From: a virus
Lineage: Duplodnaviria > Caudoviricetes
DNA length: 64,000 nucleotides
Virus record (IMG/VR): IMGVR_UViG_3300035499_000517
Location: 96,001 to 160,000 of that record
Strand: one strand, 5' to 3'
The notes below the pieces were generated by a model. The model saw only the letters and a program-made list of their open reading frames with translations. It searched no databases and was not told the DNA's origin. A program made the translations under genes and the position numbers. Positions 22,208-58,046 of the stretch are shown here, one piece after another. Numbering within the stretch: the first letter of the stretch is position 1; every line of letters starts with the position of its first letter.

Positions 22208-22687
22208 CATTATGAATTGCCTAATTTCATAACAGACTATATCTTCATCTCAAATATTCTATTACCAAATATTTGAGAGCTCTCCATTTGGGATTTTTGA
22301 TATCATTAGATATCTCACCTACATTTCGCTCTATTATTGAGCCTACTCGCTTCGTGTAGATATTTCAATCTACCTTATTTTCAAACCAGCTACTACTATT
22401 ATAGTATTTAGAGATTTCTCTCAATCTGGTTGTCTAGCTTTCCCTAGTCGTTGAACGTTACAGTATCTTGTACTGTCTTCGCAGCGGATTTTCCATTCAC
22501 ATGAATCTTGTTACTGTACCTAAGGCATTACCCTTCGCCCTTAGAATATCACTACTCTAAGTTAGTAATTCATATGTTAATTGGTACAACTGGCTACTAG
22601 TTGCATGTAACGACAAAGTTACATCTTTCCCGCGTAAAGAGAGGTTTATATAACGACTCACGCCGTTATGCGGCATATATTAAAAAG
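22208..22687 (-). ncRNA. Group I intron (480 nt, no homing endonuclease ORF) in beta' bridge helix
   Basis: P1 GCGGU/GCCGC with U.G pair; P7 elements UCAACGACUA and AAGAUAUAGUC; terminal G; splicing restores KAV-GTSDSGYL. Confidence 0.85.
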
Positions 22688-23657
22688 ACCGCCTTGGGGT
22701 ATGCCCCCTGTACTACAGAATTGGATGCCGGGGTGAAATCTTCTTTACGAAGTCCATCGTTGAAAGAAGTTTTCATAATATCATACTTTCCAGTATTAGG
22801 ATTTATAACAGCACCACGCATCAAGAAGATATTTTTCATATGGTTGTTGATATCACCACGAGCTCCAGAATTGTAAAGGTCAAATCCCGGATCATCTTTA
22901 ATAATATCAACCATCGCATCAATAAGTTGCTTCTCGATTTTATTAGCCGTCAGAATATCTCCCTCAGCTAATTCCTTTTCGTATTTCTTGAAAAGTTCAT
23001 CACGAAGCTTCTTTACTGATACTGGGGTTTTTACAGTTTTCTCCGTAAGAGATACTGTAATGAGACCATGTAACTGGAGCCCTAACCAATCGCGATGGTC
23101 AATGTATTTACGGAAATCAGTCGTTGTAATTTTATCAGAGATAAGAAGTTGTGTTACTTCTTCCTCATAGTTGACTGCTTTCTTTTTTACTAATACTTCA
23201 TTGTTGTATGGGAAAAATCTACGGAAACCTAAACGATCAATCATGATCTTATTCCAACAAATTCTACCAACAGTCGTTTCACAAGCACGTGGATTATGAT
23301 ACTCATTTGCTTTTAATGAAACGATATCAGTGCATTCATATTTAGACTTCTTAATTGTAGATTTTCCATTCTTGTCTGTAACTTTCCTATCGGCGAATAA
23401 ATCAGAAAGGAAAGCAAAATCGAAATCTTTTGGATCCCTTTCGAGTAATTCACGTTTGAATTCTTCTGGAACATGACGGCTATCTGTGTAAGGTTCACGA
23501 GTCATATCATAAAATGTCTGATACACCTCGTATTTAATCTTTCTTACATTTTCTCCACTTGAAGAGATGAAGAAGGATTTCGATTTCATGACCTTATCAC
23601 ATTCAGCATTTGCCTCTTGTGTCCAGAGGAATTTAATTGTAACCTGATCACCATCAT
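22688..23657 (-). CDS. rpoC: Phage RNA polymerase beta' subunit, exon 2
   Basis: Begins (Y)DGDQ; TTVGR, SGARG, GL motifs of beta'. Confidence 0.85.
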
Positions 23658-23986
23658 CAATCTGGTTTCTCATACTCTCGTATGAAGTTTAGACTATATC
23701 TTCGTTAATATAATTAACACTCTCCGTTTCGGATTGTTTCACCTACATTTCGCCCTATGATTGAGCCTACTCGGTTCAGATATTGCTATCTGCCTTTCCC
23801 TAGCCGTTGAGCCCATATCTCGATGAGATACTTCGCTGCGTCGATCATCTCTATTCTTAACCTTGATTACCATATCTCCGGAGTTACCCTTTGCCCTTGG
23901 ACTGTCGCCATTCCAAGTTGGTAGTTAGACTTAACGAGACTTCCCCGCGATTAGAAGAGTTTAAGGTGACCTATAGTGATGGGTTA
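23658..23986 (-). ncRNA. Group I intron (329 nt) inside the catalytic GGDYDGD motif
   Basis: P1 GGUGACU/GGUCACC; P10 CCAUCA with exon UGAUGG; UCAACGGCUA and AAGAUAUAGUC; terminal G. Confidence 0.88.
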
Positions 23987-25418
23987 AGTCACCCCCGAGT
24001 CCTGCAAGATATGAATTGGAAAACTGCAGTGTATCTATGAACTGCGTTGCGTTCTTCTCTCGTGGACACAGGAAATTTTGCTTTGGAAAATGCTTGTAAA
24101 TCATTCCATTGATTTGAACGACTTCTGTTTGGAGTGTTGCAATTGGATTGATTTCAGAGACAAAGATTCCATAAGCATCAGATACAGGGTAACGTGTAAT
24201 GATCGCATGTTGATTCTTTGTGCAATCATACGCTGCCATGTAAAGAATGTCATTTACAGTCATCGGACGGTTTGAAATTGTGGAAAGTTCATGTGTTCCA
24301 CTTGGGTCCATTCGCTTTCCTGTAAATAACACATCATTGTATTCATCTTTTGCAATTGGTGCTTTAATGGGGTCAAACCTTGATTCAGGATCATGCATGT
24401 AAAGAGTCATCATATCTTCAATATACTGATCGGAGAAATAAAGCTCCGGTTTGTATAAAGCAATATAATCAATCTTCTGCTCCCCTGTTTTCTTATCGGT
24501 TTTAATGATTGGAACCTGCTCTTTGTTTGTGATAAAATTTCTCTGGAAGAAAGATTTTAACCAATTAACCATAAAAGGAGCATCCAAGTCACAAATCTGT
24601 GAAACGGGAACTCCAGTAATACCGAATCGGCTTCCAGTCTCTTCCGGACTATTATCATGATACAAAGGGCAAGAAATAACAGAACGTACACAGTTGTCTA
24701 CGTTCTTTCCCATTAAGTACTTTCGTATGATACCATTCTTTTTCTCCAGCTTCCGCTTAAAGGTATCATAAATTTCACAAAGTAATTTCTGAATCATATA
24801 ATGAGTTCCATGAAGGGTAAAGTCATACATGTCTTTATCTCTTATCACTTTGCTCAAACGAATCAGCTTTGTGTACATATTATTCAGTGGATCTGTTTCT
24901 CCACCTCCATCACTTCCCGGCATAATGTCGCGGTAAAAGACAGGAATGATGATCATCTTATCTACAAAGATTTGATTTTTTGGGGTCTTTGTCAAAAGGT
25001 CAACACGTTCATCACGCATTGCAGAAGACGCTTCATCTATCTTCAATTTCCAATTGATTTTCTCCCAATTCTCATAGATAAATTCGATGCCTGTTTGCCC
25101 GTTCTCATCATCTTGTACGAGTTCGCCTTTTGGAGTAATGGAATAATACTCAGCTCCATTTACAATGCGCTCGATGTTTCTATATAATCGCCTTAATGAT
25201 TTATAGACATGAGGATGAAAAAAGTGCCCATAGAGGGTCACATACGCATATCTATTTTTTCTGGAACGAGTATCGATACCAAATATTTCGTTGGATAATA
25301 AACCACCGGGATCTGCGACTCCTCCTCTTGCAAATACAATTGGAGAAGTGACTTCTTTTAAGTGATTCAATCCGACGAAGTCATCAAAATTAAATAATTC
25401 GACTTTAATTGTTATCAC
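23987..25418 (-). CDS. rpoC: Phage RNA polymerase beta' subunit, exon 1 (probably virion RNAP)
   Basis: GGLLSNEIFG, IIPVFYRD, KNGIIRKYLMGKNVD..RSVI, TRYP, LGGD; spliced product about 1180 aa; late promoter 25430-25441. Confidence 0.85.
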
Positions 25419-26602: not shown

Positions 26603-26619
26603 TTTCATTTATATAATAT
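26603..26619 (+). promoter_or_regulatory. Early-type promoter TTTCATTTATATAATAT
   Basis: Consensus copy heading the 26.6-30.1 kb unit. Confidence 0.75.
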
Positions 26620-27116
26620 CTATATAGATACATGAGAAAGGATATGTACTGAAAGGAGGGCATTTTGATATTCTCGTATCAACCACGTCCGGTTGTGGCT
26701 GAATTCTACATGAAATAATTCCATGTATTGTGGCTAGTATATGGATAGTTTTGTGAATGGATTCATTTGTTACTCGTGAACCTGATTGATAGTATTATAA
26801 TTACCTTGATTTTTATATACTTGATTTTGATGATTTGTGAATGTAAAAACAAAGTGTTTTGGCAATGGGCACTTTATGACAATCGTGACATTCTAAAGCG
26901 TGGCAGCAACGTCGTTAAAATGGTATATGAAAAGCATGAGAAATTTATAATAATATCAATTCAGAGACATTTAATTAAGGAGGTTTAAGATTTCCTCTCT
27001 AACCTTCTCGTATTCTTTTAGTTTAGATAAAATTTAAATGGTGAAGACTGGCCTATGTAATTGATCGGAAAATGGTTGGTCTTCACCATTTACTGTCACT
27101 TTAGGAGGAAAAAAAT

Positions 27117-28067: not shown

Positions 28068-28074
28068 GGATAAG

Positions 28075-28630
28075 TTGAGTCTGTCGAGGTGATGTAGTGG
28101 TATAGACTGGTAATGCTTAGTGACGTGATGTTTTGTTGCGTGGCGTAATGGTATAGTGCATTGACGTAATGGTATAGTGAAGATGGTACAGTGCTGTGAT
28201 GTATTGGCGTAGTTGATCTATGTGGCGTGCAGTGAAGTATTGGTGTTGTTTAGTGAGGAATGCTCAGATATGCAATTGGTAGTCTGATGCTCAGTTCAGT
28301 GTTGCCAGGTGAAGTGTTGGTATCGTTTAGTGATGAGGGTTGTGCTCTGGAGAGGTATAGAAAAGTAGAGTTATCTTAAGTAATGGTGTAGTTTGGTGAC
28401 GCTAGTTTTGTAACGTAAAGGTAGGGTAGAGTAGAACACTGTTCTGTTCCGTGTCGGTGAAGTGAAGTTTCGTACTGTGGAGCAACGTTTCGCATAGGTA
28501 AGGTAAAGTATCTCATATTTGTGTTCAGCATAGGTGAAGTAAAGTGGTGAAAGGAATGTGTAGTATGGGTATTGTTTAGTGACGCAAATTGTCGATATGT
28601 TTTGTTTTGGCAGAGTATTAAGAGATATCT
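28075..28630 (+). repeat. Non-coding 5-nt periodic array 1 (TNNNG units with periodic extra G) closed by AGTATTAAGAGATATCT
   Basis: e.g. tgacg-tgatg-ttttg-ttgcg-tggcg-taatg-G-tatag; G/T skew; no ORF >=60 aa in any frame. Confidence 0.85.
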
Positions 28631-28674
28631 AATTTTGGAGCTTATTGATTTTATTGTGAAGAAAGGAGTGTGAA

Positions 28675-28896
28675 ATGGAAGTAAAGATTACATCAGAAAA
28701 AGATATTGTATTTAACACCGAGGAATTACCAAAAGTCAAAGAAGAGCTAAATGAAATAGCAAATAAACTTGACGCTTTACAAGAACGTGATTTCTTCCAA
28801 GATAATGAAAATACCTTCATGAAAATCTTGGGAGATGCAATCACGTCCATTGATGATTTACTCGATGATATCGAAACCCTGGAATCTCAGATCTAA
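28675..28896 (+). CDS. Small acidic helical protein between arrays
   Basis: AAGGAG RBS; DAITSIDDLLDDIETL resembles the motif in 29769-30050. Confidence 0.7.
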   Translation: MEVKITSEKDIVFNTEELPKVKEELNEIANKLDALQERDFFQDNENTFMKILGDAITSIDDLLDDIETLESQI

Positions 28897-29203
28897 GCAA
28901 AGGTTTTCCATAGTGTAGTCCGCTTTTGTACTGGTATGGTCCAGTAAAGAGGGAAATGTGACGTTCAGTACGGGCGTGGTCACGTGAGGTACTGTATGGC
29001 TTTGTGCCGTAAAGGTGAGGTAAAGCAAGTCATTGTATAGTTAAGGAGATGTAAGGCTTGGAACAGTAGCGATTGGTTGGGTATCGTAATGGTATTGTCA
29101 GGTAGTGTGGTGGCATAGCCGAGTGGCGTAGTGTTTTGTGTTGATATGGTTATCTGGCGTGCTGTATGGTTGTGTGACGATTGTTGAGTATTTTAGAAAA
29201 TCT
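28897..29203 (+). repeat. 5-nt periodic array 2 closed by AGTATTTTAGAAAATCT
   Basis: e.g. tcacg-tgagg-tactg-tatgg-ctttg-tgccg-taaag-G-tgagg. Confidence 0.85.
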
Positions 29204-29726
29204 TTAGTTGGTGTTGTAATGATAACGCCAGACATCGGATGGTAAAGTTTCGTGATGGTATATTATAGTGGGGTCCTGCGTGGTATAGGAATAGCTTGGA
29301 ATAGTAGGGTTGGGTCTAGTAGAGTAACGGTGTGACTAGGATATGAACAGTGATGTATCGTTACGGAGAGGCTAGGTTAAGAACCGTGATGTACCAGAAT
29401 AGTTTAGTCTAGTAGAGCATGGTGTAGTTATGGTGCAGTTACGCTCCGAAATGTGAGGTAACGGTACAGTGAGGAAATGCTACGCATGGGTGTAGTGCTA
29501 TTACGTAGCGTATTGGTATAGTTGCATATAGATATGTGCTGTGATGGTATGGACCAGTGTCGTTAGTAAAGTATTGCAATGGTATATTGAGGAAGGGTTA
29601 AGTATAGGTAGGGTTACGAACAGTTAAGAATAGTTGTGGTGAGGACTGGTTAACCATAGTAACGAACCGGTTTGGTTGCGTGGGTTAAAGTATACTCAGG
29701 TAATGGTAAAGTATTTTAAAATTTCT
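29204..29726 (+). repeat. 5-nt periodic array 3 closed by AGTATTTTAAAATTTCT
   Basis: e.g. G-tgtag-tgcta-ttacg-tagcg-tattg-G-tatag-ttgca-tatag-atatg-tgctg-tgatg-G-tatgg. Confidence 0.85.
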
Positions 29727-29768
29727 AATATTGGTGAAAGTAATTAAAGACACGAAAGGAAGTATTAA

Positions 29769-30050
29769 ATGGAAGAGAAATTAAGAAACAACACAAATTC
29801 CCTCTATGAAGTAACAGAGACGATAACTGGAGTGGATTCTCTGCTGAGTTATCTGAGGAGTATCTCAGACACAGAGACACTGAATGCAAGTACAAAGATT
29901 TCTCATTATACAGCAAATGCAATTACTGATCTTGAGAATTTGAAATCTGAGCTGGAGTCTCTTAGAAGATATAAGATTGTAGAGCGAAGGGAAGCAGCAA
30001 TCGGGATTTATCCATCAGATGCTCTTGCTAAAAGTTCTAACGTAGTGTGA
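29769..30050 (+). CDS. Small helical protein, probable paralog of 28675-28896
   Basis: AAAGGA RBS; NAITDLENLKSELESL. Confidence 0.7.
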   Translation: MEEKLRNNTNSLYEVTETITGVDSLLSYLRSISDTETLNASTKISHYTANAITDLENLKSELESLRRYKIVERREAAIGIYPSDALAKSSNVV

Positions 30051-30061
30051 ACGAGAAAATA

Positions 30062-30099
30062 AGGAGAGGATGAACACAACCATTCATCCTCTCTTTTTT
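30062..30099. terminator. Bidirectional terminator
   Basis: GAGAGGATGAA...TTCATCCTCTC-TTTTTT. Confidence 0.8.
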
Positions 30100-52564: not shown

Positions 52565-53487
52565 ATGGTTTTGTTGAACCCTATTGGGTTCTCAGCATAT
52601 TTCTTCTTCTTTGGGTCCCAGTTCTTGTTGAACCGGTACTTCACAATATTCTCACTGATGAATTGCTTCTTGATAAATTTCTCAATCAATAACGCTGGGT
52701 CATCACCGAATATCTCACGCTGTCTAAAGATTTTCTCATTGTGGAATGCCGAATCCACAACCTTTCTCTTGACATACACAAACAGTTTGTTGAAAATGTT
52801 GACATTGTCCTGAAACAGCTCCAATGTCGGTGAAAAGAAATCGTATATGATTGATACGTCTCTCTTCGGTTTCAACTCATCTGGCTTGATTTTATTCTTC
52901 GTGAAATAATGAAACATCACCGGTACAATCAGTTTCATTGCAAATGATATCCGAAGCAGAATCTCAATATGAATATTCTTAAATTCCAAAGACTCCAAAT
53001 ATCGTTTGTCTGTATTCTGCTTATAGGTTACATCTGGTGAAACTTTCTCGATGTCATCGAGATAATTGTCATGTACCATGTCACGAATCTTCTGACACAT
53101 TGATGGTGTGAAGATTAGTTCATAAATCAAGTCAATTAATGCTTGTGGATTTTCGCGTGTGAAGGCTCCCACTTTGTCAATCTCATACTTGATCTTTAGG
53201 TATGCAGTCACCAGTTCATTCTCTGGGTCATACCGATTGATGAAGTAGTCGATGTAACTGGAAAAGACTCTTAGATGTTCCTCATAAGAAGACTTCTTCA
53301 CACAAAAGTTGTTGTACTTCTTGAACTCTGGTATTCCAAATACCCGTTCAAAATGTACGATGAAAATGTTGCCGTCGCTTTCTGTTATCACTTCTCCTTT
53401 CTTTGGCTTCCAAGTGTTGATCTCAGCACTTCGGTTTGCGTATCGTAATTCCTCTTCAGTATTCGGTTCCTTTTTCCGTCTACTCAT
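52565..53487 (-). CDS. Exon 1 of probable nvRNAP promoter-specificity subunit (AR9 gp226/phiKZ gp68-like)
   Basis: Spliced ~548 aa; early promoter at 53536-53552; two genes from the chaperonin, as I recall for AR9 gp226/gp228. Identity is inference. Confidence 0.55.
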
Positions 53488-53535
53488 TGACGCAATCACC
53501 TCCCGAGTTTATAGTTACTTATTACTCTCAAAATG

Positions 53536-53552
53536 ATAATATATAAGTAAAA
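53536..53552 (-). promoter_or_regulatory. Early-type promoter TTTTACTTATATATTAT
   Basis: Consensus copy. Confidence 0.7.
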
Positions 53553-53558
53553 TTTATA

Positions 53559-54356
53559 TTAGCGTTTCCTGTCGAGTGTACTGAGCTTTTTACGACCCTT
53601 AGTTGCTCGTGTGACATGAGTTTTGTTTTTCGAATTCGTTACAGTAGAACGTTTCGCTGTATTAATCTTTGTAGCAGGGGTTTTTGATGGAACGCGCTTT
53701 CCTTTAGCACGACTCTCTTTCCTCTGCTTCTTGTTGTTTTCCAATTCCTTGTTGATTTTTCGATCCATAGTACGAATCTCACTCGTCATCTTTATATCCT
53801 GGAAATCACGAATTTCACGGAAGAACTCATCCGGTTTCTTCTTCATAAATCCCTGTACGAATTTGCTGAATGCATTGATCTTCTGGTCAATTAAAAACCG
53901 ACATGCAGAATAAATAGACTTGTCATAACTCATTTTATGAGACTGATTTGTCTGCTCTGGCAACTTATCAGCATATTCCTGGTCCATCTTTTCATAAAGC
54001 ATATCAATAAGGAAGCCGTTCTGTTTATACAGAGCTGCATACTGATAAATGAAAGATGGTGAATTAGAGAAGAACTTCACATAATAGTTACGGAAGGTCC
54101 GTTCTTTCTTAAGTTCTTCATTATCCGTGAAAAATAACAAAACCACATCATACGAATCTTTCAGGTTCGTATCTGAGCCTACAGAAAGGTGAAGGAGATA
54201 ATCATCATCTATCTGTGTATGGGCAACCATTTGAATTCGTTTATTTCTCATAAGATTTTGATACTTATCTTCGTATTCATTACTTTTTACCTCCTCTTTT
54301 CCAAAAGGAGCTGCTAAGAATTGCTCAATTGTTTGAAATGATGTCATATCCTTCAC
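53559..54356 (-). CDS. Hypothetical protein with basic C-terminal tail
   Basis: 265-aa ORF; YDVVLLF...KFFSNSPSFIYQYA. Confidence 0.7.
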   Translation of the reverse strand: MKDMTSFQTIEQFLAAPFGKEEVKSNEYEDKYQNLMRNKRIQMVAHTQIDDDYLLHLSVGSDTNLKDSYDVVLLFFTDNEELKKERTFRNYYVKFFSNSPSFIYQYAALYKQNGFLIDMLYEKMDQEYADKLPEQTNQSHKMSYDKSIYSACRFLIDQKINAFSKFVQGFMKKKPDEFFREIRDFQDIKMTSEIRTMDRKINKELENNKKQRKESRAKGKRVPSKTPATKINTAKRSTVTNSKNKTHVTRATKGRKKLSTLDRKR

Positions 54357-54367
54357 CTACACTTCCC

Positions 54368-56422
54368 TTAATTGTTTCTTACATGTGTGTGGTTCCATGA
54401 AGCAACCAGAACCTGATTTCCTACTACAAGAATAGAAAGAAGGTCTGATGTTGCTTTTAAGATCTCCACATCAGTCTTTACACTGTTAATGACATCATCG
54501 GAGAAGTCCATAATATCAAGATCAAATACCTGACCTTTGATATGGGAAAGCTCTACAAGAAGGAGTGCTCCCGGAATGGAAACTTCTTCACCAATTGTAT
54601 AATTCTTGGAATCAAGACTCTCCACAAATTTTGCAATTAAATCACGGAGAACAGATTCTTCTGTGTTAATCTTCATCTTGTTATACATGAATGTGATTAC
54701 TGCATCGACATCCTCTTTTAAATAGATCATCGGGAAAGAAATTTCTCCAAATGCATTACAAAGGACATCACAGTATACAGACTTAAATGCAGATGCAATG
54801 CAAGAAGCGATGGTACGCTCTAACGGAGTGGAATCCGGGTCTGCAATTAACTCATCTGCACTCTTTGTAATTGTAAAGTTACAACCCGGAACGTAACCAT
54901 AGCGATAAGCGGACTCCGCTGCACGAATCGCATCTTCTGTAGAATCCTTCAGTAAGTCTTTTGACATATCGGATTCACCACCGACATAGATCTTTGCAAT
55001 CTTCATCTTCAACGAGCAAACGCGGTTCTGTGCTTCATAAACATCACGGGTATAAGTACCAAGCTCTGTAAATTTCTTGATGACTTCATCCAGCTTATTC
55101 TCTGCATTACGAAGTGCTGTATTATAAAGCTCATCATCATAATGAGATGCCTTAAATACGGAACTCTTCTTTCCAATTGTTGCAGTATCACAAAAGCCGA
55201 GGTCTAACACGGTATCTTTCAGACGGTCTTCATCATAAACAACCGCCTCAGAACGTACAAGATCTCCACTGTCTTTCTGCTTTGTTACAAGGATTCCCGG
55301 AATCGCACGATCAAAGATGTTAACGATATTAACGATTTCGGATTCTCCTTTTCCTTCCATAGCAGCTTTATCCATCTTATCAACGATGATATCCTCTAAA
55401 TCACGATCAATAACTGTCGTTCCAAGAACGATTGCAAGATCCGCAATCTGCTGCTTTGCAATGTCATTTCCGCTAAAATAAGAGCCGATGATCAGGTTGA
55501 TAGTGTGCTTTTCTTTTAACTCTTTTAAGAGTGATCTCCGGATTTCTCCAGTCAATAACTTGTCATCATACCACGGTGCTAAACAAATCAGTTTACGCCC
55601 GGATACACGACAAACATCGTTAAGTGGTTTGATGATATTCTCATATGTTGATGAAGTTACCTTCTGACCGAAGATCAAAACATCCGCATTCTTGAAAAAT
55701 GCAGTATCGTTGTCATTATTGATATAAACATCATCGCCGAGCTTTACGTTGATGTTATAACCATCGGTAATCTCGTAATAGGTTTCTGATGTGTCTGATG
55801 TTTCGCAGACAATCGCCGGGAAACCAATCTCATCATAAATAGATGTGATGATGTCAACCATCTCAGCATTTCCATTACTTGAAATGTGAACGATCTTTCG
55901 AATACCCTCAGACAAGTTCTCCGGATTCAGATGGATAGCAGAAGCATTGAGTTTCTCTACGATAGAATCCGTAACTTTCTGGAATACTTCCATGAACTCT
56001 TTCGGGCGAACATCTGTAATCTCCGGATTTGTCCGCATTGCATTCATGAATGCCTGAAATACTTTATTAGTTCCGATAATGGCAGATGTTGTTCCATCAC
56101 CAACGGAATAGTTCAAACGACCACAGATATCAGTGATCATGCCACCGATTACCTTATCTACTTCAGAACCCTCGAACTGATCAAATTCGATATTTCTACA
56201 AACGGTAAAACCGTCCTTTGTCACATGCTTGTACGGGTAAGTTGAAATAATTGTCGGCGACCCGTATGCACCGAGCGTCTTCTTTAAAATGTCCTCATAT
56301 GCCTGAAACACAATCGAAGCCCTCTCGAGAAAATCATCCCGCTCCATTACATTAAGCTTCGGTGATTCAGTACACTTAATCGTACCGACACTACCACTGT
56401 CGGAAAAGAAATCTTTCGACAT
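54368..56422 (-). CDS. groEL: Phage GroEL-like chaperonin
   Basis: KTLGAYG, TKDGFTV, VGDGTTS, ISSNG, IYVGG, EDAIRAA...GYVPG. Confidence 0.9.
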   Translation of the reverse strand: MSKDFFSDSGSVGTIKCTESPKLNVMERDDFLERASIVFQAYEDILKKTLGAYGSPTIISTYPYKHVTKDGFTVCRNIEFDQFEGSEVDKVIGGMITDICGRLNYSVGDGTTSAIIGTNKVFQAFMNAMRTNPEITDVRPKEFMEVFQKVTDSIVEKLNASAIHLNPENLSEGIRKIVHISSNGNAEMVDIITSIYDEIGFPAIVCETSDTSETYYEITDGYNINVKLGDDVYINNDNDTAFFKNADVLIFGQKVTSSTYENIIKPLNDVCRVSGRKLICLAPWYDDKLLTGEIRRSLLKELKEKHTINLIIGSYFSGNDIAKQQIADLAIVLGTTVIDRDLEDIIVDKMDKAAMEGKGESEIVNIVNIFDRAIPGILVTKQKDSGDLVRSEAVVYDEDRLKDTVLDLGFCDTATIGKKSSVFKASHYDDELYNTALRNAENKLDEVIKKFTELGTYTRDVYEAQNRVCSLKMKIAKIYVGGESDMSKDLLKDSTEDAIRAAESAYRYGYVPGCNFTITKSADELIADPDSTPLERTIASCIASAFKSVYCDVLCNAFGEISFPMIYLKEDVDAVITFMYNKMKINTEESVLRDLIAKFVESLDSKNYTIGEEVSIPGALLLVELSHIKGQVFDLDIMDFSDDVINSVKTDVEILKATSDLLSILVVGNQVLVASWNHTHVRNN

Positions 56423-56473
56423 AAAAAATCCTCCTTACTAAAAATCTTGTTTAAAAGAGAGTTTCATGGATTA

Positions 56474-57214
56474 TCATAAACTAGCAGATTCTGTTGCAAA
56501 GAATCGATCAAATTTAAATACATGCTTCTCTTTTAACTTCTCTATGTCAACGATAAATTCACCGTCTTCCACATTGTATCCATACTCTTCAGCAACGATA
56601 ATCGAAGAGTAATCGAGTTTTCCTACATCTTCTAATACTCCGACATTTGTAATATCAGAGAATATATAAGTAGAATCATCTGGAACCTCGGCAAGTGCCG
56701 ATTCGATGGGTCCCATCTTTACTTCAACAAACTGAGAAATATCAGAAAATAATTCTCGGATATCTTCTAAAATTGCTTTGTTGTGGTAAGGGTACCAGAT
56801 GATTGCTTTCTTGGAAAGTCCATTGTCTGTACCGAATAAAATCTTGAGAGCTTGCACAACGCTGAGTGGAGTTGCAATCTTTAAAATCTCTGGAACAAGC
56901 TCAATATTCTTATCTAAGATCATCTCTAAATCATTCATTCGAACATTATCCATATCCTCTACTAAAACGAAATTCATGAGAAGATTCTTATAAGGTCTAC
57001 TGACATACCAATCATCTAATTCTTCATCATTCATCCCAATGATCTCTGAAAAATTCAATGTGAAATTTGGGTATTGTTTGATTGGTTCGCCGACCGAAAG
57101 TGTCTTTAATATTGTAATATAAATGGGTCTGACGAGGTCTGCATATTCCACAAAAACCGATTTACTATTTAGGAATACAGAATCAAACGTCATGACTCTA
57201 TCTTTATCAGCCAT
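56474..57214 (-). CDS. Hypothetical protein
   Basis: GAGGAGG RBS; acidic alpha/beta pattern. Confidence 0.7.
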   Translation of the reverse strand: MADKDRVMTFDSVFLNSKSVFVEYADLVRPIYITILKTLSVGEPIKQYPNFTLNFSEIIGMNDEELDDWYVSRPYKNLLMNFVLVEDMDNVRMNDLEMILDKNIELVPEILKIATPLSVVQALKILFGTDNGLSKKAIIWYPYHNKAILEDIRELFSDISQFVEVKMGPIESALAEVPDDSTYIFSDITNVGVLEDVGKLDYSSIIVAEEYGYNVEDGEFIVDIEKLKEKHVFKFDRFFATESASL

Positions 57215-57284
57215 TTCAATCCTCCTCTAAATGATGATAAAAATCTGGGATAAGCCAGAAACTTATCCCAGAAAATATTACTTT

Positions 57285-58046
57285 TTACTGAAACGGAATC
57301 TCATCTACGGAATACTCCGTTGTCTGAAAGTCGCTTCCTGCTGACCAGCCAGAATCTGACTGTCCGCTGGTGTTGTTTGCCTGATTGTTATTGTTGAATC
57401 CACTTCTGTTTCTTACAAACTGTCCATGATAACGGCTCTCATGACTTACCATACCAAGCATCAGGGAGTAGGATGAAAGAATCTTGAAGAAGATATCAAA
57501 ATCATTTACATCCTCAGAAATCATCTGACCACCCTTTGTCGGGTCATAGTCGACGATAACGGATGTCTTTCCAAACTTAAAGGTTACCACCTGTGTCGGA
57601 TCTACACCCATGTCGTTGATATTTCTCACGAGAGAAACTGCGAAAGCTGCACTGCCGTTATCTTCCGGGTATAATGTAATCATAAACATTCCCGGAGTAC
57701 CGTTCTGAACACCACCAACAAGAACACCAATAGATGTTCCGTCTACCGGAATCGGATCACTTCCGTTTAAATACTTTTCAAATTTTGCTTTAAACTTGCT
57801 TACAAGTGCTGCACACTTCTGTATAGAAAGTGCAGTGCCGATACGATGCTGCCAGTCATATCTGTGAATACCATTCGCATCCTGTCCGGATGTCGGTACC
57901 CAAGAGATAGAAACTTTGTCGTTCCAGAGAGCGACGCTGAACTGCATCGAGTTATCACTTGCATAAAACGATTGTAAACTTGTGTTAATACTACTTCTTT
58001 GCTGTCTTGGCAGCTGTGATGCTGCCGGATTTTGTCTGTTGAACAT
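57285..58046 (-). CDS. Possible single-stranded DNA-binding protein
   Basis: Beta-rich core, N/S/Q-rich linker and SSB-like acidic tail DEIPFQ. Confidence 0.4.
   Translation of the reverse strand: MFNRQNPAASQLPRQQRSSINTSLQSFYASDNSMQFSVALWNDKVSISWVPTSGQDANGIHRYDWQHRIGTALSIQKCAALVSKFKAKFEKYLNGSDPIPVDGTSIGVLVGGVQNGTPGMFMITLYPEDNGSAAFAVSLVRNINDMGVDPTQVVTFKFGKTSVIVDYDPTKGGQMISEDVNDFDIFFKILSSYSLMLGMVSHESRYHGQFVRNRSGFNNNNQANNTSGQSDSGWSAGSDFQTTEYSVDEIPFQ

What the first reader, a model, noticed from the sequence alone, without database searches (positions are those of the whole stretch)
28075..29726. ORF-free arrays with 5-nt periodicity: candidate guide-RNA-like repeat system
Seen: about 1.35 kb on the plus strand parses almost continuously into TNNNG pentamers (equivalently N-G-Y-N-N). 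Every few units an extra G is inserted, giving super-units of 5n+1 nt (21, 26, 31, 36), e.g. Gtgcag-ttacg-ctccg-aaatg-tgagg-taacg / Gtacag-tgagg-aaatg-ctacg-catgg / Gtgtag-tgcta-ttacg-tagcg-tattg. The scaffold positions are conserved while the inner bases vary without repeating, so this is not a simple satellite. There is no ORF >=60 aa in any frame. The arrays lie inside an early transcription unit (promoter 26603, terminator 30062). Inference: a fixed scaffold with variable bases suggests an RNA bound by a repeating protein subunit, with the variable positions carrying information. From memory, this resembles the pentameric GGY-NN arrays reported for phage VIPR-type (RAMP/Cas7-like) RNA-guided systems. 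Here the scaffold is NGY with periodic GG, and no RAMP-like gene is recognisable in the window, so the arrays would be orphan, trans-acting or a different system.
Basis: partly seen in the sequence, partly recalled or inferred. Interest (0 to 1): 0.92.

Follow-up and report, generated by a model that had tools for sequence, protein, structure and literature searches.

The report
Staggered VIPR guide arrays, protein missing
The five-base rhythm is real and most likely marks about 39 guide RNAs of VIPR, a CRISPR-related phage system described in 2026; the partner protein gene is not beside them or in the half of the genome that could be searched, and no targets were found.

Summary
Periodicity confirmed: lag-5 z = 7.6 and 8.1, with later peaks at 5n+1 lags, and nowhere else in the 115-kb record. 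Units are H-N-N-N-G, with an extra G about every 7 units, giving about 39 unique segments.

The same grammar was found at 66 viral loci; 46 carry a co-oriented gene folding as a Cas7/Csm3 RAMP. This matches the published 'staggered', YNNNG-type VIPR arrays. Across the family the variable bases mirror codon positions 1-2 (r = 0.91), as the published skip code predicts; this window alone is not significant.

No vipr gene lies in the held 115 kb (47% of the genome). The closest complete relative has neither gene nor arrays. Six more distant jumbo phages have both, with some arrays 10-22 kb from the gene. So Vipr must act in trans, from the unseen half of the genome or from another phage. Transcription could not be tested. 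This scan found staggered and orphan VIPR arrays before on other DNA. Verdict: new member of a known kind.

The parts
26603..26620 (+). Phage promoter-like motif (TTTCAYTTATATAWTATC), probable start of the unit
   Evidence: Recurs about 15 times upstream of genes in G000; 'early' and activity are inferred
26625..27116 (+). Structured 0.5-kb leader; no vipr remnant
   Evidence: Folding z = -4.6; no Vipr match by HMM or tblastn; no Rfam hit at gathering score
27117..28067 (+). DUF4116 repeat protein, 316 aa; occupies the slot where vipr usually lies; not a RAMP
   Evidence: Pfam PF13475 E 1e-18; no match to the Vipr-family HMM
28070..28610 (+). Staggered pentamer array 1, about 15 segments of 4-10 H-N-N-N-G units joined by an extra G
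28609..28638 (+). Array-closing motif, shared with the end of array 2 (GGYARAGTATT ... TCTAATWTTGG)
   Evidence: Direct comparison of both array ends; function unknown
28675..28896 (+). 73-aa gene between the arrays, with a ribosome-binding site; no known family
   Evidence: called in strain contigs; 3 variable sites in 7 strains
28899..29706 (+). Staggered pentamer array 2, about 23-24 segments
29705..29734 (+). Array-closing motif, second copy
29769..30050 (+). 93-aa helical protein with no homologue outside this phage's own cluster
30061..30096 (.). Bidirectional intrinsic-terminator-like hairpin
   Evidence: 14-bp stem with T tails on both strands

Best explanation
Two staggered vrRNA arrays of a VIPR system, acquired as an accessory cassette at a variable site of a jumbo phage. 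Shown: the grammar, and its tight link to a Cas7-fold RAMP family in other viruses. Inferred mechanism: (1) the unit is transcribed from the promoter at 26603; (2) one Vipr protomer binds each pentamer, holding the G and the following non-G base; (3) the extra G breaks the register and marks guide boundaries, giving about 39 short guides (median 7 units); (4) bases 2-3 of each pentamer pair with DNA, skipping every third target base, usually on codon positions 1-2, to repress transcription in a competing element or the host. The protein is not encoded at the locus and must come in trans. I put about even odds on a distant vipr gene in the unsearched half of this genome versus a Vipr borrowed from another phage (orphan array).
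For: A blind pattern scan gave 66 array-bearing loci. 46 hold a member of one protein family, all on the array's strand, 44 within 500 nt; no array-less locus of that scan had one. Conversely, 63 of 80 loci fetched by the protein carry a detectable array. The family folds (pLDDT 86) onto Csm3 and type VII Cas7, E about 1e-7, and its G-loop end aligns to SUSP1 Vipr (hhalign 63%, E 7e-5). Segment lengths, base profile and junction bias equal those of vipr-linked arrays; the closest profile is that of vipr-positive jumbo phage G006. Family-wide, bases 2-3 match sense codon positions 1-2 (r = 0.91 against a null of 0.64 +/- 0.04) and stop triplets are not depleted (175 seen, 186 expected), which fits a two-base read with base 4 free. 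SUSP1 D177, which contacts the first G of GGY, is Q in 245 of 255 family members, which would explain the free fourth base (inference). Arrays 10-22 kb from vipr occur in jumbo phages G002, G003, G007 and G008.
Against: No vipr in the 114.8 kb held, which spans 74 kb upstream and 39 kb downstream, further than any distal array seen in relatives. No target above shuffled controls under any rule, and collection scans gave only chance-like hits. The codon signal is not significant for this window alone (p = 0.06 for all units, 0.19 for inner units). Strain differences do not spare the scaffold (p1 20, p5 13, p2 12, p3 10, p4 17). The link of the family to SUSP1 Vipr is weak and covers 48 columns.
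Confidence: 0.82

Rival explanations
1. Sub-case: true orphan. The phage has no vipr; its guides are loaded onto, redirect or soak up the Vipr of a co-infecting phage or prophage.
For: No vipr within 74 kb upstream or 39 kb downstream. The nearest complete relative lacks the system. A vipr-positive jumbo phage with the most similar array profile (G006) comes from JGI sample 3300035520, which also holds a strain of this phage (L115). Orphan vrRNAs are published for SUSP1-family phages. First-reader notes on other windows of this genome mention no RAMP gene (weak evidence).
Against: About 53% of the genome is unsearched. All six other array-bearing jumbo records searched that are over half complete had vipr. 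No guide matches G006 or other vipr loci above chance. A shared host with G006 is unknown.
Confidence: 0.4
2. Decaying relic: once-functional arrays left after loss of vipr, now drifting neutrally.
For: Ten one-base-short units (3.9 per 100, family median 0.55). One of them is a full pentamer in strain L120. Scaffold positions vary as much as the inner ones among strains. Array 2 diverges more than neighbouring genes in some strains (90-94% against 96-99%).
Against: The vipr-positive G006 array has the same short-unit rate (3.2) and G conservation (0.895 against 0.906). G at position 1 is nearly absent (1 of 255 units). Both arrays keep their full length in all strains that span them.
Confidence: 0.12
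3. Three-base code: bases 2-4 of each unit pair contiguously, so the guides spell 18-24-nt target stretches.
For: Only two of five positions are fixed. Base 4 changes no faster than bases 2-3 among homologous segments of the family (0.063 against 0.066 and 0.068). An earlier scan report proposed it for a GGA-type array (e1-5647516).
Against: Stop triplets are not depleted although bases 2-3 are codon-framed. No three-base matches were found locally or in GTDB genomes for one 21-mer. Exact two-base hits matched base 4 only at chance level.
Confidence: 0.1
4. Not VIPR: a DNA element (origin, packaging site) or a binding track for another repeat protein such as the adjacent DUF4116 protein.
For: DUF4116 is a repeat protein in the same unit. 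No RAMP gene is present at the locus.
Against: The closest relative replicates without the arrays and has an unaccompanied gene in this slot. DUF4116 is not among the gene families shared by array loci; the RAMP is.
Confidence: 0.04

Closest known systems
VIPR systems with staggered vrRNA arrays and alternative YNNNG/NNNNG repeats (bioRxiv 10.64898/2026.04.26.720920, Methods and Fig. S18 legend)
   Same: Pentamer period, a single fixed G, successive guides offset by 1 nt; in other viruses the same array type lies beside a lone RAMP gene.
   Different: No vipr or recognisable vap gene at the locus. Arrays are interleaved with small unrelated genes. The figure itself could not be viewed, so the type number is not assigned. 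The preprint's experimental confirmation covers ribozyme-interspersed and single-guide loci, not staggered arrays.
Type II VIPR of Escherichia phage SUSP1 (same preprint; structures in 10.64898/2026.04.26.720927)
   Same: 5-nt unit with a conserved G and a mostly pyrimidine neighbour; family-level codon bias expected from the 1-nt skip rule.
   Different: SUSP1 guides have 9-16 YNNGG units and a pseudoknot tail each. Here position 4 is free (G 0.21), segments are 4-10 units and abut without tails.
Orphan (solo) vrRNAs of SUSP1-family phages and satellites (bioRxiv 10.64898/2026.10.15.759431)
   Same: Guide arrays with no adjacent vipr gene.
   Different: Those are GGY-type guides in Enterobacteriaceae elements with predicted targets. 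This is a 39-guide staggered array in a jumbo phage, with orphan status unproven and no targets.
Non-canonical 5-mer VIPR clusters (WGT/NN, TGH/NN; bioRxiv 10.64898/2026.10.21.760802)
   Same: Degenerate fixed trinucleotide next to Vipr-like folds.
   Different: Here the base before G is fully free (N-G-H), and that paper does not mention staggering.

Membership tests
VIPR (vrRNA array) | Tandem pentanucleotide repeats with fixed scaffold and hypervariable inner bases | tested here: met
   the same detector recovers the SUSP1 vrRNAs
VIPR (vrRNA array) | Canonical GGY/NN motif with 9-16 units per guide | tested here: not met
   Position 4 is G in 0.21 of units; median 7 units. The preprint accepts YNNNG and NNNNG as alternatives
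VIPR (staggered subtype) | Successive guides offset by 1 nt, each ending where the next starts | tested here: met
   5n+1 autocorrelation peaks; 27 of 35 junction spacings are 5n+1; compared with the Fig. S18 legend only
VIPR | vipr (RAMP) gene flanking the array | tested here: not met
   No match in the window or in G000
VIPR | vipr gene anywhere in the genome | tested here: inconclusive
   G000 is 47% complete; the 257,734-bp contig could not be reached
VIPR | This array type is served by a RAMP with RRM core, thumb and G-loop | tested here: met
   In other viruses. Not compared with the preprint's seed set, which is not held
VIPR | Accessory vap gene (DNA-binding, nuclease or helicase) | tested here: inconclusive
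   Neighbours are DUF4116 and two small proteins of no known family
VIPR | Arrays expressed and processed into small RNAs that co-purify with Vipr | not testable with these tools
VIPR | Natural DNA targets under the 1-nt skip rule | tested here: inconclusive
   No excess over controls. Only a family-level codon signature. Host and competitors are unknown
VIPR type II | Conserved structured 3' tail on each guide | tested here: not met
   Segments abut directly; only one short shared motif closes each whole array
CRISPR array | Identical direct repeats separated by spacers | tested here: not met
   No such repeats; no Rfam match

The most novel reading that the evidence does not exclude
A jumbo phage with no vipr gene carries about 39 staggered guides to hijack or jam the Vipr of a co-infecting jumbo phage such as G006. 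This would extend orphan-guide warfare to staggered arrays and to competition between jumbo phages.
Probability: 0.3. Interest if true: 0.6.

Novelty: new member of a known kind. Interest (0 to 1): 0.38.

Why it matters
Staggered VIPR arrays are described but, as far as the three VIPR preprints read here show, not tested. How such short guides (about 7 units, 14 informative bases) are cut and achieve specificity is open. This locus and its large RAMP family (over 5,000 proteins at E <= 1e-20) offer test material, and the D177-to-Q change gives a testable reason for the relaxed scaffold. If the array is a true orphan, it points to guide-level competition between jumbo phages. As a class, however, it is known, and this scan has seen it repeatedly.

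Tried and rejected
1. No nucleotide match in GenBank phages.
2. Searches for a RAMP in G000 by G-loop motif, two HMMs, the genome search and tblastn of about 260 proteins were negative.
3. Attempts to reach the missing half of the genome failed: no 257,734-bp contig among the top 120 hits of two profiles; GyrB homologues were from other phages; contig walking ended in the tape-measure gene.
4. Target searches under 2- and 3-base rules with 0-2 skips, in G000, eight other phage genomes and 2.6 Mb of loci, in neighbouring genes, and for tiled pairs of guides, matched the shuffled controls.
5. Exact scans: 3 metagenome hits for one guide, 24 viral hits for another (redundant, in several unrelated families), none in GTDB. 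No second guide supported any hit.
6. Rfam, tRNA and tandem-repeat scans were negative.
7. The folding z of array 2 is -2.9 on 20 shuffles with a poorly defined ensemble; not taken as evidence of structure.

Full report
Observation. The interval holds two non-coding, G/T-rich tracts, 28070-28610 and 28899-29706. Each has a strong lag-5 autocorrelation (z 7.6 and 8.1), and the peaks shift to 16, 21, 26, 31, 36 and 41. Nothing comparable occurs elsewhere in the 114,823-bp record. The unit is H-N-N-N-G (position 1: T 0.71, C 0.15, A 0.13, G 0.00; position 5: G 0.90). An extra G follows every 4-10 units (median 7), giving about 39 segments with a biased junction close to TAATG-G-TATAG; ten units are one base short. 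The segments are unique.

Context. The window belongs to a jumbo phage with its own RNA polymerase. The same proteins occur on a 257,734-bp contig, and the held record G000 is 47% complete. The unit runs: promoter-like motif (26603, about 15 copies in the genome), structured leader, DUF4116 gene, array 1, 73-aa gene, array 2, 93-aa gene, terminator. The closest complete relative (G001, RNA polymerase 71% identical) is syntenic on both sides but has a single unrelated long gene in this slot, and neither arrays nor a RAMP anywhere. The cassette is therefore accessory. Seven strains differ by point changes and small indels, not by turnover of whole segments.

What the grammar belongs to. A blind scan of IMG/VR for the pattern returned 103 stretches. 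66 contain extended arrays, and 46 of those hold a member of one protein family of about 200 aa, always on the array's strand and in 44 cases within 500 nt; none of the array-less loci does. Fetching by the protein gave arrays at 63 of 80 loci. The family ends in a G-loop (GLGQWRNxGYGRF), folds with pLDDT 86 onto Csm3 and type VII Cas7, and aligns weakly to the SUSP1 Vipr G-loop region. The window's arrays match these in segment length, base profile and junction bias. The VIPR preprint 10.64898/2026.04.26.720920 lists YNNNG and NNNNG repeats and staggered arrays with 1-nt offsets. Orphan guides are reported in 10.64898/2026.10.15.759431.

How it probably works. From the SUSP1 structures, one protomer binds each pentamer, flips out three scaffold bases and presents two for pairing, skipping one target base. 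In 4,619 inner units of this family, bases 2-3 follow sense codon positions 1-2 (r 0.91; null 0.64 +/- 0.04), and stop triplets at bases 2-4 are not depleted. That is what a wobble-skipping two-base code predicts. The window alone shows the same trend without significance (r 0.74, p 0.06). The SUSP1 residue D177, which reads the first G of GGY, is Q in 245 of 255 family members, a plausible cause of the free fourth base. Transcription, cutting at the GG junctions, loading and repression are all inferred by analogy; none is shown here.

Where the protein is. No vipr gene or remnant lies within 74 kb upstream or 39 kb downstream. Six more distant jumbo phages with arrays all have vipr, and four also carry arrays 10-22 kb from it, so a distant gene in the unsearched half remains possible. 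Equally, vipr-positive G006, whose 4.3-kb array has the closest profile, comes from the same sample as a strain of this phage, so a borrowed Vipr is possible. I could not separate these. Decay is a lesser option: short units are more frequent than the family median but equal to those of G006.

Targets. None were found. All local searches equalled their shuffled controls, and exact collection hits had no support from a second guide. With 12-16 informative bases per guide and an unknown host, this is weak negative evidence.

Verdict. It works like, and very probably is, a staggered VIPR guide array, but it fails the adjacent-vipr and canonical-GGY features. My reading was fixed before I consulted earlier scan notes. 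Those notes show the same kind on other jumbo phages, including distal and orphan arrays; they are not independent support. New member of a known kind, interest 0.38.

Noticed in passing
window 26625-27116: The 0.5-kb leader folds far better than shuffles (z -4.6), with a 19-bp stem near its 3' end just before the DUF4116 gene; no Rfam family. Possible regulatory RNA.
   Followed up: partly
window 22666-25418; L121 2378-5647: The RNA polymerase beta gene is in two ORFs here (288-nt gap) but is one 812-aa gene in strain L121, which has a NUMOD4/HTH gene beside it: a mobile intron or endonuclease polymorphism is likely.
   Followed up: no
G006 53071-57337 (L003, L142, L161): A 4.3-kb staggered array of about 130 segments beside a vipr gene in a 243-kb jumbo phage, far longer than the arrays described in the preprints read.
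   Followed up: partly
L129 1213-2004 (G003): A second, divergent RAMP paralogue (E 2e-11) with an altered G-loop, about 28 kb from the main vipr gene.
   Followed up: no
L005 3145-4446 (G002): A gene that looks like a TnpB-type transposon nuclease (judged by eye from its sequence) sits between two distal pentamer arrays.
   Followed up: no
L184-L259: Temperate-size phages with this Vipr family use C- or A-rich first bases, and their segment patterns differ by gain and loss among close relatives: a good set for studying guide acquisition.
   Followed up: partly
window 34606-34950: GC-rich island between divergent genes, noted by another reader as a possible structured RNA.
   Followed up: no
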